The notes: a model not told the origin generated them from the letters alone. 64,000 nt of DNA from a virus (IMGVR_UViG_2671180984_000014), one strand, 5' to 3'. Positions 10,457 through 63,580 are shown, counted from the stretch's first letter. A program made the numbers and translations.

Positions 10457-11080
<624 letters not shown>

Positions 11081-11232
11081 GAGTAGGAATGTTGTTGTCT
11101 GGGGGGTAATCAGTGTAGGTGGAATGAGGAATATGATATGGTTATCACATAATCAGATTGTTTTGAGTAAAACAATAAAACGCCCTTTAATGGGCGTTTT
11201 GTTAAAACTTAAATTGACTATCATTTCAAATA

Positions 11233-12045
11233 CTATTTTAATTCTATGTAATTTTTAAATTCCCTCTCATATTTATACATGATGTTATCAAATCCTTCCA
11301 TTACATCAACGAATTGTTGTGAACATTCCGGCTTCCAAGGCGTACACTTACGAACCATATCCATTTTATTCTTATCCTTCGTTGTATCGACTAAGGATAG
11401 GTACCCTATAAAATTCATCATCTGAACAGGATCTTGATTTGTGAATATATATTTGACGTTTTGCTTAGTAGGTGAAAAAGAATCAAAAGCAGGGAACATA
11501 TATTCACCAGAAAAAGAGAGTGCAGCATCAATGACGTCAGTTGCTGGAGTGCAGTTGCTCAGAATTGGCACTAAACTAAAATTAGCACCGGAGCACACTG
11601 CATATATATCATCCCCTTTTTTTAGTTTTAACAGAGAGTTTTGTTTTGAATCCAACACTTTCAATTTGATATAATTTAGTGGCGTTGCATTTTCCCCTGG
11701 AGTAAATAACTCTACAATTGGTTCATTATTCACCATTCTTATGGATTTTATTTCACCATATACAATTGAAATTTTATTCCATTTTTCCTGAGCGGCAAAT
11801 TCATTATCTTTAAAATCATTAACCAACTCAGATGGAAAATGATAACCAAATTGATTATTCATTGCTTTCGAGGCAAATCCAGACAAATAGAACACCCTTA
11901 CTAAATCATAATCTTTTTTTGAAGTAGAAAGCCAATCTGGCAATTTATTATCAGCTATCGCGCTTCCAGCAAAAATAGCACAACAAAATGTTATTACATT
12001 AAATAATTTCATTTTCCATTCACTCATTAATCGGTTTAAACTCAC
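11233..12045 (-). CDS. secreted protein, sim-like superinfection-exclusion candidate (signal peptide MKLFNVITFCCAIFAGSAIA)
   Basis: N-terminal signal peptide; AT-rich island; position between tail operon and immI, where P1 carries sim genes. True start probably the internal Met near 12012. Confidence 0.4.
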   Translation of the reverse strand: MSLNRLMSEWKMKLFNVITFCCAIFAGSAIADNKLPDWLSTSKKDYDLVRVFYLSGFASKAMNNQFGYHFPSELVNDFKDNEFAAQEKWNKISIVYGEIKSIRMVNNEPIVELFTPGENATPLNYIKLKVLDSKQNSLLKLKKGDDIYAVCSGANFSLVPILSNCTPATDVIDAALSFSGEYMFPAFDSFSPTKQNVKYIFTNQDPVQMMNFIGYLSLVDTTKDKNKMDMVRKCTPWKPECSQQFVDVMEGFDNIMYKYEREFKNYIELK

Positions 12046-12355
12046 TAATCAATTCACCAAGACTATTTGGGTATGCTTTATAAATAACATACTCCGAAGA
12101 GCCATCTGAATATTGGTAAACCCCATAACAAACCAGTTTATTTATTCCTTTCTGAATAGTTTTTTGATTATAAGAATCAACCACTGTTATTCCATATGAC
12201 GATAATATTTCGTTATATTCTTCAATAAGAGCTTTTCTTGTTTCCACTGAATTGCAATCTACCTTCGAAAAGTCAACTTCATCAGCAAAAACATTAAATG
12301 TTAAAAAGGAAAGCACTAAAAACAAACGAATCAGCATAAATCCACTCCTACGCAT
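12020..12355 (-). CDS. small secreted protein (signal peptide MLIRLFLVLSFLTFNVFA)
   Basis: Signal peptide; same AT-rich island. Confidence 0.4.
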   Translation of the reverse strand: MRRSGFMLIRLFLVLSFLTFNVFADEVDFSKVDCNSVETRKALIEEYNEILSSYGITVVDSYNQKTIQKGINKLVCYGVYQYSDGSSEYVIYKAYPNSLGELISEFKPINE

Positions 12356-12358
12356 GGA

Positions 12359-12490
12359 TTAATAGTCATTGATCGCAAAGGCGTAAACGTGCCCAAGGTA
12401 TTTCGTATAATCGGTACAAATCTCCTTCACGCTTGATGCTGCATTAACAGTCCCGGCCATAAATAATAACGGTAGTAATAGTTTTCTCAT
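12359..12490 (-). CDS. 43-aa secreted peptide (MRKLLLPLLFMAGTVNAASS...)
   Basis: Below the 60-aa track cutoff; ATG with GGTGAGG SD upstream; signal-peptide-like N-terminus. Confidence 0.35.
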   Translation of the reverse strand: MRKLLLPLLFMAGTVNAASSVKEICTDYTKYLGHVYAFAINDY

Positions 12491-12586
12491 TATAACCTCA
12501 CCTGCCTTATAACTCATTTAGGGTACATATTTTCGCCTTTAAAAAAAAGAGGTTATTAGATCCAATTGTGCATTTATTAAACAAGC

Positions 12587-12603
12587 AATGCTCTAATAAA
12601 TTT
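12587..12603 (+). promoter_or_regulatory. C1-type operator (AATGCTCTAATAAATTT) at the immI promoter
   Basis: 16/17 match to ATTGCTCTAATAAATTT upstream of c4-icd-ant. Confidence 0.7.
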
Positions 12604-12739
12604 GTATTTTTAAGTCGCGAATGCTATCTTTTCGCATCATATTGACCTTTTAATCGTTCAGGCTTATAGTTCCGCCGTCGTAGCAAATTCTGCGACCGGG
12701 TTTAGCAGCCTGAATACTTACGCGGACAACCGCAGATTT

Positions 12740-14257: not shown

Positions 14258-14275
14258 ATTTGCTCTAATAAATTT
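14258..14275 (+). promoter_or_regulatory. C1-type operator upstream of kilA-repL
   Basis: TTTGCTCTAATAAATTT. Confidence 0.7.
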
Positions 14276-29181: not shown

Positions 29182-29198
29182 ATTGCTCTAATAAATAT
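29182..29198 (+). promoter_or_regulatory. C1-type operator (ATTGCTCTAATAAATAT) in divergent promoter region
   Basis: 15/17 match; precedes the hrdC-dmt operon. Confidence 0.65.
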
Positions 29199-33400: not shown

Positions 33401-33490
33401 AGAGTGGAACCTCTTTTTGCCAGACGTTCTGTGTCTTGTAAGGGGGACACTCGAGGTGTAGCTCATGACGTTTTGGGTATATTGCTCTAA
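30449..33490 (+). CDS. dmt: bifunctional DNA methyltransferase: N-terminal C5-cytosine MTase (intein-interrupted) fused to C-terminal Dam-like N6-adenine MTase
   Basis: GTG start overlapping hrdC stop; C5 motifs GGTP|[22 protein letters not shown]; Dam motifs KWAGGK and DPPY. Confidence 0.8.
30680..31702 (+). other. intein (341 aa) with LAGLIDADG homing-endonuclease core inside dmt
   Basis: Begins Cys ([20 protein letters not shown]), block [19 protein letters not shown] and [10 protein letters not shown], ends [21 protein letters not shown] followed by Cys+1. Confidence 0.8.
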
Positions 33491-33497
33491 TAAATTT
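33481..33497 (+). promoter_or_regulatory. C1-type operator, exact consensus ATTGCTCTAATAAATTT
   Basis: 17/17; precedes the tRNA/ban operon. Confidence 0.75.
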
Positions 33498-34162
33498 ATT
33501 AGTGTAATATTACCTCAATGAATCGTGATTTATAGAGCGATTTAGCTGTTAGCCGCGACAGGCGCGGCGGTAAGCATGGCTGGGCCTAGTCCTCCCAGAC
33601 AAACCACCGAGTTGCCAGGTTGACCATGCGCCTAAGTGGCAACGCCGAAGTGCGTTACGAGCGTCCAGTTTGCCCATCTTCGGGTGGGCGTTTTTTTCAG
33701 GGTTTTCGTCATGGTTAGCGACTTTGCGGCGGTTTAGAAACTGACCATTAAAGTAAATGCAAACGATGATCTGATGATGGTAGCGGCCTAAGAAGCCAGA
33801 TGCCATGGGGTATGAGTCGTCCCCCGTCAAAAAATCGACCGCAGAGTGTCCCCGTCTGTGTATTAGGGAACGGGGAGGCACAACAGGTAAGGGCGCTGGT
33901 GTGATTAACCAGATGAACGAGAAGGGGCCATCTGTTGGTCAGCGTCCTTTCCTGTTGCGTTTTCTTTTCAGCGTAACAGCGGTGCTTAACAGCACTTTGG
34001 GTACAGTTCCACGAATTTACGGGTATATCCCGTCATGCTGAAGGCGCTAATCACGCTGGAAGCCAGGGTTATGCATCCCCTGTTACCGAATTGCAGCCAG
34101 GGCGCGGTGCGCCGAAAAGCATACGGAGGTGGAAGCCCTCGCCGGAGACGTACCCGGCAAGT

Positions 34163-35282: not shown

Positions 35283-35519
35283 ATGCAGAACAATCCGAAC
35301 AAATGTCGAACGCTATGGGTGCGGTTATATATTTATGCCGTCCTCTGTTTGATTGTGTCACTGGTTCTGTATGTTTGGCTTTTGCCAAATATGATCTCAT
35401 CTAACAGCACAATACTTGTATTGTTGGGAGTCCTTCTCGCGCTCATTTACCCGGCTTTCGCAGTAGTCTTTTTTCGTGAAAAAACCAGGAAATTAATTAA
35501 TGAAAAAAACGTTGATTAG
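35283..35519 (+). CDS. small membrane protein (78 aa)
   Basis: Two hydrophobic helices; coupled to downstream lipoprotein gene. Confidence 0.4.
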   Translation: MQNNPNKCRTLWVRLYIYAVLCLIVSLVLYVWLLPNMISSNSTILVLLGVLLALIYPAFAVVFFREKTRKLINEKNVD

Positions 35520-63563: not shown

Positions 63564-63580
63564 TTTGCTCTAATAAATTG
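63564..63580 (+). promoter_or_regulatory. C1-type operator (TTTGCTCTAATAAATTG) after pacB
   Basis: 15/17 match. Confidence 0.65.

What the first reader, a model, noticed from the sequence alone, without database searches (positions are those of the whole stretch)
11233..12490. AT-rich island encoding three consecutive secreted proteins (sim-like)
Between the tail operon and immI the sequence becomes strongly AT-rich and encodes three minus-strand proteins (about 259, about 105 and 43 aa after trimming to the first hydrophobic Met), each with an N-terminal signal peptide. The position matches where P1 carries its superimmunity (sim) genes, and the base composition suggests horizontal acquisition. 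These are candidates for periplasmic superinfection-exclusion factors.
Basis: partly seen in the sequence, partly recalled or inferred. Interest (0 to 1): 0.35.

Follow-up and report, generated by a model that had tools for sequence, protein, structure and literature searches.

The report
Phage P1 sim superinfection-exclusion locus
This AT-rich stretch is the already described sim (superimmunity) gene cluster of a P1-type phage-plasmid of E. coli, which exports proteins to the cell envelope to keep a second P1 phage from getting its DNA in; it is ordinary and known, with small added details about its origin.

Summary
Window 11000-12700 is 97.6% identical to phage P1 (NC_005856 46553-48252), where the three minus-strand ORFs are annotated simC, simB and simA, between pmgC/LPsit and the C1 operator Oc4/c4. 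SimB and SimA are 100% identical in protein to P1; SimC has 9 substitutions. GC is 0.33 against 0.475 for the window, the lowest stretch in 64 kb. All three proteins start with a Sec-type signal peptide, which only one other of 85 long ORFs has. Added here:
- SimC has a central OB fold of the tRNA_anti-like type and belongs to a tiny family: 14 cluster representatives among 1.84 billion.
- simB-simC is a conserved, tightly spaced two-gene module under purifying selection. It is found in at least three arrangements in this slot.
- simA is the 41-codon 5' remnant of a 180-215 aa exported protein that is intact in other P1-like elements.
- The slot is polymorphic, with sim-type, P7-type and Ro157-type cassettes in 127, 162 and 79 complete E. 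coli genomes; all encode exported proteins.
Novelty: already known. Interest: low.

The parts
11233..12012 (-). simC coding sequence (259 aa from ATG 12012). P1 annotates the ATG at 12027 (264 aa); the longest ORF starts at GTG 12045. This is the superimmunity / superinfection-exclusion protein.
   Evidence: 96.5% protein identity to P1 SimC, 9 substitutions. P1 annotation 'simC, superimmunity'. dN/dS 0.15-0.39 against three homologues. phrog_14355 E = 2e-184.
11953..12012 (-). Predicted Sec signal peptide of SimC (MKLFNVITFCCAIFAGSAIA, cleavage after AIA).
   Evidence: n/h/c-region rule. The title of Maillou & Dreiseikelmann 1990 speaks of 'the processed protein'. The exact cleavage site was not verified here.
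11551..11829 (-). OB-fold (tRNA_anti-like) domain of SimC, residues about 62-154 of the 259-aa protein.
   Evidence: Pfam PF12869 at 23.1 bits, E = 5.9e-5, just under the 23.5 cut-off. Homologues P0013 and P0014 carry PF12869. AF2 model pLDDT 71.8. Foldseek hits to PDB 3f1z, a putative nucleic-acid-binding lipoprotein (TM 0.71 on target, rmsd 2.7 A), and to LysRS, MCM10 and Stn1 OB folds. Viral tRNA_anti-like proteins also hit.
12020..12337 (-). simB coding sequence (105 aa from ATG 12337; P1 annotates ATG 12355, 111 aa). A small exported protein with a conserved Cys pair.
   Evidence: 100% protein identity to P1 SimB. AGGAG Shine-Dalgarno sequence before 12337. 59% homologue next to a SimC homologue in L007. 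dN/dS 0.16-0.18.
12284..12337 (-). Predicted Sec signal peptide of SimB (MLIRLFLVLSFLTFNVFA, cleavage before DEV).
12359..12490 (-). simA (43 aa from ATG 12490; P1 annotates ATG 12517, 52 aa): a signal peptide plus 26 residues. It is the 5' remnant of a 180-215 aa exported protein that is intact in other P1-like elements.
   Evidence: 100% identical to P1 SimA. 93% identical over 41 aa to the N-terminus of Ro157c2YLVW gp35 (215 aa) and 62% to JK004 gp14 (189 aa). The TAA stop aligns with GAA of the intact genes and homology ends about 10 nt further on. phrog_3933 positions 1-41 of 213.
11177..11200 (-). Intrinsic terminator immediately after simC (AAAACGCCC-loop-GGGCGTTTT followed by a T-rich tail).
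   Evidence: Terminator scan. RNA fold -17.1 kcal/mol, z = -3.4.
11076..12588 (.). Variable, AT-rich cassette slot. Homology to P7 and Ro157c2YLVW stops at 11075 on the left. It resumes at 12589 (P7) or about 12351 (Ro157c2YLVW) on the right.
   Evidence: blastn break-points; GC 0.33.
12555..12581 (-). Position of the sigma-70 promoter PsimA predicted in the P1 record (P1 48108-48134, constant offset 35553).
   Evidence: P1 annotation, transferred through the gap-free alignment. Predicted only; my consensus scan did not list it.
12587..12603 (+). C1 repressor operator Oc4 (AATGCTCTAATAAATTT), directly next to the sim promoter region and controlling the divergent c4-icd-ant operon.
   Evidence: 1 mismatch to the C1 operator consensus; 8 such sites in the window against 0.03 expected. 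P1 annotation.
11055..11073 (-). Late promoter LPsit of the downstream pmgC-tub-pmgB-sit tail operon. It marks the conserved left flank of the slot.
   Evidence: P1 annotation 46608-46626, transferred by the constant offset. The flank is conserved in P7, Ro157c2YLVW and L009.

Best explanation
The region is the sim (superimmunity) operon of a P1-type phage-plasmid. It is an AT-rich accessory cassette transcribed leftward from the immI control region and ended by its own terminator.

SimC is made with a Sec signal peptide, exported and processed. In the periplasm it stops a superinfecting P1 after adsorption and before its DNA reaches the cytoplasm; this is published work that I did not re-test. 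SimC consists of an N-terminal helical part, a central OB fold of the tRNA_anti-like type that is probably disulfide-bonded, and a helical C-terminal domain with a second conserved Cys pair.

My inferred mechanism is that the OB-fold protein binds a component of the entering phage in the periplasm. Candidates are the tip of the tail tube with the Sit tape-measure/transglycosylase, or the DNA itself. Binding would block the step that opens the inner membrane.

SimB is a small exported partner. It is translationally coupled to simC and inherited with it as a two-gene module. SimA is the vestigial 5' end of a larger exported protein. It mainly supplies the promoter-proximal start of the operon.
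For: Shown here:
- Identity with P1 sim and its synteny.
- AT-rich island, lowest GC in the window.
- Signal-peptide-like N-termini on all three ORFs, against 1 of the other 83 long ORFs.
- Terminator after simC.
- Purifying selection on simB and simC, dN/dS 0.15-0.39.
- simB-simC pair conserved with a 7-nt gap in L007 (47% and 60% protein identity) and L009 (84% and 92%).
- OB fold.
- Conserved Cys pairs in SimC and SimB homologues.
- simA is a truncated gene.

From the literature:
- sim causes superinfection exclusion and the Sim protein is processed: titles of Kliem & Dreiseikelmann 1989 and Maillou & Dreiseikelmann 1990, cited.
- simA, simB and simC are non-essential for lytic growth in a CRISPRi screen (PMC10695390).
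- simABC is a low-GC variable region (PMC9603915).

Against: - No experiment here shows export or exclusion for this allele.
- The 9 SimC substitutions relative to P1 are untested.
- The target of SimC is unknown. An OB fold does not say whether the ligand is DNA, protein or sugar.
- The Pfam score is just below the curated cut-off (23.1 against 23.5).
- The AF2 model is only moderately confident (pLDDT 71.8, one of five models).
- The roles of SimB and SimA have never been shown; the P1 record calls them only 'putative accessory'.
- To my recollection a single-copy prophage gives little visible sim phenotype. The natural target may therefore not be P1 itself.
Confidence: 0.9

Rival explanations
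1. The cassette is the P1 sim locus, but its natural role is not exclusion of P1 itself. It would be an envelope-modifying accessory cassette ('moron') that protects the lysogen against other phages, colicins or stresses. On this view the P1 exclusion seen with multicopy clones is an over-expression effect.
For: The same slot holds unrelated cassettes that also encode exported or lipoproteins: P7 Upf50.5/Upf50.0, Ro157c2YLVW gp35/gp34. The three sim genes are dispensable for lytic growth. From my recollection, superimmunity was defined with multicopy sim.
Against: The published phenotype is specific exclusion of P1 at the DNA-entry step (papers cited). The cassette is found only on P1-like elements, as expected for self-exclusion. 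No hit to any PADLOC defence model.
Confidence: 0.15
2. Mechanistic rival: SimC or SimB acts like T4 Sp. It would inhibit the peptidoglycan-cleaving SLT domain of the incoming phage's Sit protein, rather than binding DNA or blocking a membrane channel.
For: Sit carries an SLT transglycosylase domain and must act in the periplasm, where Sim proteins reside. Small periplasmic inhibitors of lysozymes and transglycosylases are a known class (established knowledge, from memory: Ivy, MliC/PliC, T4 Sp).
Against: No sequence or fold similarity of SimC to known lysozyme inhibitors was found. The SimB model is too poor to compare (pLDDT 57). There is no co-variation evidence between sim type and sit alleles.
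Confidence: 0.15
3. The ORFs are chance open frames in AT-rich non-coding or decaying DNA and make no functional protein.
For: AT-rich DNA has few GC-rich codons and can hold spurious ORFs. RefSeq plasmids label the products 'hypothetical protein'. simC is frameshifted in phage 813R1. simA is indeed a remnant.
Against: simB and simC keep their reading frames at 47-60% protein identity in L007 and have dN/dS 0.15-0.39. They have ribosome-binding sites, conserved Cys pairs and a recognisable OB fold. A processed Sim protein was purified (Maillou & Dreiseikelmann 1990, cited).
Confidence: 0.02

Closest known systems
Bacteriophage P1 sim locus (simC, simB, simA; NC_005856 46786-48070)
   Same: Same genes, order, strand and neighbours. 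97.6% nucleotide identity. SimB and SimA proteins identical, SimC 96.5% identical. Same terminator, LPsit flank and Oc4 operator.
   Different: 9 amino-acid substitutions in SimC. Seven lie between residues 45 and 130 of the P1 numbering, in and around the OB fold. The closest relatives are E. coli plasmids at 99.9%.
Ltp of Streptococcus thermophilus phage TP-J34 (a secreted lipoprotein that blocks DNA injection by acting on the tape-measure protein)
   Same: Prophage-encoded and exported to the outer face of the cytoplasmic membrane. It acts after adsorption and before DNA entry (established knowledge, from memory). A viral protein described as 'Host cell surface-exposed lipoprotein' shares the OB-fold part with the SimC model (rank 3, poor rmsd).
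   Different: No sequence similarity. SimC is a soluble-type Sec substrate without a lipobox. Ltp has helix-turn-helix-like repeat domains, not an OB fold. Not a family member.
T4 Imm and Sp; P22 SieA; HK97 gp15; T5 Llp (classical superinfection-exclusion proteins)
   Same: Phage-encoded and narrow-spectrum. They block entry of DNA of the same or related phages at the envelope (PMC13128918; papers cited).
   Different: These are mostly inner-membrane proteins or lipoproteins with no sequence relation to the Sim proteins. There were no Pfam, NCBIfam or PADLOC hits linking them.
tRNA_anti-like OB-fold proteins (Pfam PF12869; PDB 3f1z, putative nucleic-acid-binding lipoprotein of Klebsiella pneumoniae)
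   Same: The central domain of SimC matches in sequence (E = 5.9e-5) and in predicted fold (TM 0.71 on target, rmsd 2.7 A). The family consists of exported proteins or lipoproteins, and the Cys pair at the end of the domain is shared.
   Different: SimC adds an N-terminal helical segment and a helical C-terminal domain of about 100 aa with a second Cys pair. That combination is found in only a handful of proteins. No function is established for PF12869 proteins.
HXS system effector HxsA (a periplasmic DNA-binding peptide that retards phage genome entry)
   Same: A periplasmic factor acting at the DNA-entry step. It shows that periplasmic DNA binding can block entry (PMC13128918).
   Different: Bacterial, broad-spectrum, matured by an rSAM enzyme, and unrelated in sequence. 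P1 escapes HXS.

Membership tests
P1 sim (superimmunity) locus | Sequence homology of the three ORFs to P1 SimC, SimB and SimA | tested here: met
   96.5%, 100% and 100% protein identity; 97.6% nucleotide identity over 1700 nt
P1 sim (superimmunity) locus | Position between the pmgC/LPsit tail operon and the Oc4-c4-icd-ant immI operon, transcribed divergently from c4 | tested here: met
   Neighbouring ORFs and the P1 annotation match one-to-one. Oc4 operator at 12587-12603.
P1 sim (superimmunity) locus | SimC is made as a precursor with a cleavable N-terminal signal peptide | tested here: inconclusive
   The sequence has a canonical n/h/c region with AIA|D. Cleavage itself cannot be tested here, and no dedicated predictor such as SignalP was available. 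Processing is reported in the literature.
P1 sim (superimmunity) locus | Expression excludes superinfecting P1 after adsorption | not testable with these tools
   Needs plating, transduction and DNA-entry assays
tRNA_anti-like OB fold (PF12869) | Score at or above Pfam's gathering threshold | tested here: not met
   23.1 bits against a cut-off of 23.5, E = 5.9e-5, covering 52-144 of 146 profile positions. The homologues P0013 and P0014 do carry PF12869.
tRNA_anti-like OB fold (PF12869) | Five-stranded OB barrel superposable on a solved family member | tested here: met
   The AF2 model (pLDDT 71.8) matches 3f1z with TM 0.67-0.71 on target and rmsd 2.7-3.5 A over about 110 columns. It also matches LysRS, MCM10 and Stn1 OB folds. 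Model confidence is moderate.
Known anti-phage defence or superinfection-exclusion protein families (PADLOC models; Imm, Sp, SieA, Ltp) | Sequence match to a family model | tested here: not met
   No PADLOC hit at E <= 0.1 for any of the three proteins. No relevant Pfam or NCBIfam hit.

The most novel reading that the evidence does not exclude
The slot between LPsit and Oc4 of P1-like phage-plasmids may be an exchange site for alternative exported-protein cassettes (sim, P7 Upf50.5/50.0, gp35/gp34), each giving a different exclusion specificity. Within it, simB-simC would be a mobile two-gene module whose effector, SimC, uses a periplasmic OB fold to capture the incoming phage's DNA or its tape-measure/Sit protein. 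P1's simA would be only the scar of the gene that the module displaced. If so, cassette type would define 'exclusion groups' among P1-like plasmids, in the way incompatibility and immunity groups are defined.
Probability: 0.3. Interest if true: 0.4.

Novelty: already known. Interest (0 to 1): 0.15.

Why it matters
The locus is a textbook accessory function of phage P1, so finding it adds nothing new about the genome's organisation. Its molecular mechanism has nevertheless never been solved. The details collected here give concrete handles for testing how a periplasmic protein stops a contractile-tailed phage from delivering DNA, and whether cassette type governs which P1-like plasmids can superinfect each other:
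- an OB-fold core in SimC;
- simB-simC as a co-inherited module;
- simA as a gene remnant;
- three common alternative cassettes in the same slot.
This is relevant because these plasmids spread resistance genes such as mcr-1 and blaCTX-M-55 (PMC5786510, PMC9603915).

Tried and rejected
- Pfam, NCBIfam and PADLOC scans of SimB and SimA gave only noise: TcpS 13 bits, Ecm33 12 bits, eut_hyp 18 bits. All were rejected.
- The AF2 model of mature SimB was too uncertain (pLDDT 57, pTM 0.41). I did not run a fold search on it.
- Word-indexed homologue searches found only 4 clusters for SimC and 12 for SimB, nearly all close relatives or fragments. The profile search added little. The exhaustive HMMER search found 14 representatives for SimC.
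- The C-terminal helical domain of SimC had no convincing structural match. The high-rmsd LysRS hits beyond the OB fold were ignored.
- A literature search for 'tRNA_anti-like' together with 'superinfection exclusion' found nothing.
- Lobocka et al. 2004 (PMC523184) could not be read. The three original sim papers are not in the library, so their content is cited from titles, from citing papers or from memory.
- My promoter consensus scan was no better than shuffles (8 found, 7.9 expected). Promoter positions are therefore taken from the P1 record as predictions only.
- The idea that the SimC substitutions indicate positive selection was not supported. dN/dS is 0.15 against P1 and 0.39 against L009: higher than the neighbours (about 0.1) but well below 1.

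Full report
**1. What is there**

ORF listing shows three consecutive minus-strand ORFs at 11233-12045, 12020-12355 and 12359-12517. Downstream lies a tail-gene operon and upstream, divergently oriented, ant/kilA-like genes. GC falls from about 0.47-0.50 to 0.30-0.36 between about 11000 and 12650. In 1285-nt windows this is the minimum of the whole 64 kb (0.325; mean 0.474, sd 0.029). It is the only such island in 1-kb steps.

Each ORF has an inner ATG preceded by a Shine-Dalgarno sequence:
- simA: ATG 12490, GGTGAGG.
- simB: ATG 12337, AGGAG.
- simC: ATG 12012, GGA.

From these starts, all three proteins have a positively charged n-region, an uncharged hydrophobic h-region and a small-x-small cleavage motif. 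A crude rule of my own finds such an N-terminus in only one other of 85 long ORFs in the window, a lipoprotein-like ORF at 35500. No dedicated signal-peptide predictor was available.

**2. What it is**

Megablast of 11000-12700 against phage records gives phage P1 at 97.6% identity over the full length. The features under the match are annotated simC, simB and simA. The P1 record places them between pmgC and the late promoter LPsit on one side. On the other side lie the C1 operator Oc4, c4 RNA, icd and ant1/2.

The alignment with P1 has no gaps, so P1 coordinates transfer with a constant offset of 35553. SimB and SimA are identical in protein to P1. SimC differs at 9 residues, 7 of them between positions 45 and 130 of the P1 numbering.

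The Oc4 operator is present at 12587-12603 with one mismatch to the consensus. There are 8 operator-like sites in the window against 0.03 expected. A strong hairpin plus T-tract terminator follows simC at 11177-11200.

The best matches overall are E. coli plasmids at 99.9%. The window is therefore a P1-like phage-plasmid.

**3. What is known**

P1 sim was defined as 'superimmunity' (Devlin et al. 1982). It was shown to cause superinfection exclusion (Kliem & Dreiseikelmann 1989). It was sequenced and the processed protein purified (Maillou & Dreiseikelmann 1990). These papers are not held in the library, so I cite them through the papers that quote them.
- A CRISPRi screen scored simA, simB and simC as non-essential.
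- PMC9603915 lists simC-simB-simA as variable region 4 of P1-like phage-plasmids and links such regions to low G+C.

My recollection, unverified here, is that exclusion needs multicopy sim, adsorption is normal, transfection by P1 DNA is unaffected, and processing needs SecA.

**4. Anatomy beyond the annotation**

*(a) SimC.* Pfam gives tRNA_anti-like (PF12869) at 23.1 bits, just under the 23.5 cut-off. The family is very small:
- 4 clusters in the word-indexed search of 5.8 billion proteins;
- 14 representatives at E <= 0.001 among 1.84 billion in the exhaustive HMMER search;
- one full-length relative at 40% identity (P0005);
- a few short OB-fold proteins that do carry PF12869.

An AF2 model of the mature protein has pLDDT 71.8 and pTM 0.59. 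It shows N-terminal helices, a beta-barrel and a helical C-terminal domain. Foldseek matches only the barrel. The hits are PDB 3f1z, a putative nucleic-acid-binding lipoprotein (TM on target 0.71, rmsd 2.7 A), other OB folds (LysRS, MCM10, Stn1) and viral tRNA_anti-like proteins. Two Cys pairs are conserved across the homologues, as expected for a periplasmic protein: AVC...SNC in the barrel and KCTPW..EC in the C-terminal domain.

*(b) SimB.* This family is also tiny. A 59% homologue (P0027) lies directly upstream of a SimC homologue (47% identity) in a divergent P1-like contig, L007, in the same slot. The gap between the simB stop and the simC start is 7 nt in the window, in L007 and in L009. 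This suggests translational coupling and supports ATG 12012 as the simC start. Phage D6 has a SimB-like domain at residues 52-137 of a 298-aa protein. The AF2 model of SimB was unusable (pLDDT 57).

*(c) Selection.* dN/dS for simC is 0.15, 0.39 and 0.22 against P1, L009 and L007. For simB it is 0, 0.16 and 0.18. The neighbours pmgC and tub are about 0.05-0.13. Both are real genes under purifying selection, and simC is somewhat relaxed or faster-evolving.

*(d) SimA.* Its 43 residues are 93% identical to the first 41 residues of a 215-aa protein, gp35 of phage vB_EcoM-Ro157c2YLVW. They are 62% identical to the start of a 189-aa protein of Cronobacter phage JK004. PHROG 3933 aligns SimA to positions 1-41 of 213.

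At the DNA level the window and P1 follow the gp35 gene almost base for base, then differ in a few codons. The simA TAA stop aligns with a GAA codon of the intact genes. All homology ends about 10 nt later, just before the simB ribosome-binding site. The 'MRRSGF' extension of the annotated 111-aa SimB is the continuation of the old gp35 frame (ESMRK...).

In L007 an intact 179-aa gp35-like gene sits where simA sits in P1, followed by simB-like and simC-like genes. simA is therefore best read as the remnant of a larger exported-protein gene. It retains the promoter, ribosome-binding site and signal peptide.

**5. The slot is polymorphic**

Homology with P7 and Ro157c2YLVW ends at window 11075 on the left, just past LPsit. 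It resumes at 12589 (P7) or about 12351 (Ro157c2YLVW). The arrangements seen in this slot are:
- P7: Upf50.5, annotated as an outer-membrane lipoprotein, and Upf50.0, annotated as a membrane protein with a signal peptide and called DUF5384 in RefSeq.
- Ro157c2YLVW: gp35 and gp34, both with signal-peptide-like N-termini.
- L009: a 107-aa membrane-like protein, simB and simC lie upstream of intact gp35 and gp34.

Among 5426 complete E. coli genomes, 127 carry the sim cassette, 162 the P7 type and 79 the Ro157 type, each at 80% or more of cassette length. They are nearly always on plasmids.

Cassette GC is 0.33 (sim), 0.40 (P7 type) and 0.42 (Ro157 type), against about 0.48-0.49 for the flanks. 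Against L009, synonymous divergence is 0.217 in simC but 0.022 in the adjacent pmgC. The cassette therefore has a history separate from its flanks.

**6. Mechanism**

Shown by sequence: an autonomous leftward operon (promoter region next to Oc4, three ORFs, terminator) encodes exported proteins.

Shown in the literature: sim blocks superinfecting P1 at the DNA-entry stage, and Sim is processed.

Inferred here: SimC is the effector and a periplasmic OB-fold protein. SimB is a co-inherited, probably co-translated partner. SimA is vestigial.

The most likely mode of action is binding of a periplasm-exposed component of the injecting phage so that the inner membrane is not breached. Candidates are the tail-tube tip with the Sit tape-measure/transglycosylase, or the DNA. 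Precedents by analogy, not homology, are TP-J34 Ltp (tape measure), T4 Sp (tail lysozyme) and the HXS effector, a periplasmic DNA binder. I cannot discriminate among these targets with the tools at hand.

**7. Comparison and novelty**

This is a member of the P1 sim locus by direct sequence identity and synteny. It works like other superinfection-exclusion systems but is not homologous to them; there were no PADLOC, Pfam or NCBIfam links. The finding is already known.

The small additions are the OB-fold assignment, simA as a remnant, simBC as a module and the cassette census. They are plausible but modest. I could not check whether Lobocka et al. 2004 or later P1-like genome papers already state them.

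**8. Verdict**

Novelty: already known. Interest: low (0.15).

Noticed in passing
window 11076-12588; L003 2625-4000; L004 2641-3682: The slot between LPsit and Oc4 holds at least three alternative cassettes in P1-like plasmids: sim, P7 Upf50.5/Upf50.0, and Ro157c2YLVW gp35/gp34. They are found in 127, 162 and 79 complete E. coli genomes. All encode proteins with signal peptides or a lipobox.
   Followed up: partly
L009 1-3160 (Logan SRR14689322 contig): Composite arrangement: a 107-aa membrane-like protein, simB and simC lie upstream of intact gp35 (215 aa) and gp34 (158 aa, faint/YfjT Pfam mark). Both cassette types can therefore coexist. simC here is 84% identical to the window's, while the adjacent pmgC is 99.5% identical.
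   Followed up: partly
L007 2108-5147 (GCA_053108235.1 contig, 92 kb): A divergent P1-like element with an intact gp35-like gene (179 aa), a SimB-like gene (114 aa) and a SimC-like gene (264 aa) in the same slot. An IS605-family TnpB/OrfB gene is inserted between icd and the cassette.
   Followed up: partly
window + strand, ORF starting at 35500 (275 aa): This is the only other long ORF in the window with an export signal. It has a lipoprotein-type N-terminus, MKKTLISAAIILGSLCLTG|C. It may correspond to the P1 mlp/ppfA region, but it was not identified.
   Followed up: no
L002 2734-3512 (phage vB_EcoM-813R1): simC of this close relative carries a 1-nt deletion and is annotated as two SimC fragments. 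The cassette can therefore decay in nature.
   Followed up: no
L005 2848-3744 (phage D6 orf79): A 298-aa protein has a SimB-like domain (52% identity, residues 52-137) followed by an unrelated C-terminal half of about 160 aa. It lies at a different genomic position, next to mat. SimB-like domains thus occur fused to other modules.
   Followed up: no
window 12587-12603, 14259-14275, 29182-29198, 33481-33508, 43944-43960, 49709-49725, 63564-63580: Eight matches to the 17-nt C1 repressor operator consensus (0.03 expected), including an overlapping inverted pair at 33481-33508. This is the dispersed C1 regulon typical of P1.
   Followed up: no
window 11233-12027 (simC) and about 12353 (simA/simB junction): A published scan predicted ArgR boxes inside P1 simC (two adjacent, near P1 nt 47270) and at the simA/simB junction (P1 nt 47906). 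They have not been tested (PMC2409434) and I did not examine them in this window.
   Followed up: no
GenBank M34382 (original 1990 sim sequence): The original record differs from the P1 genome by 11 gaps, and its ORF1 is only 85% identical to SimB. These are probably early sequencing errors, so old SimB/SimC protein sequences should not be used as references.
   Followed up: no
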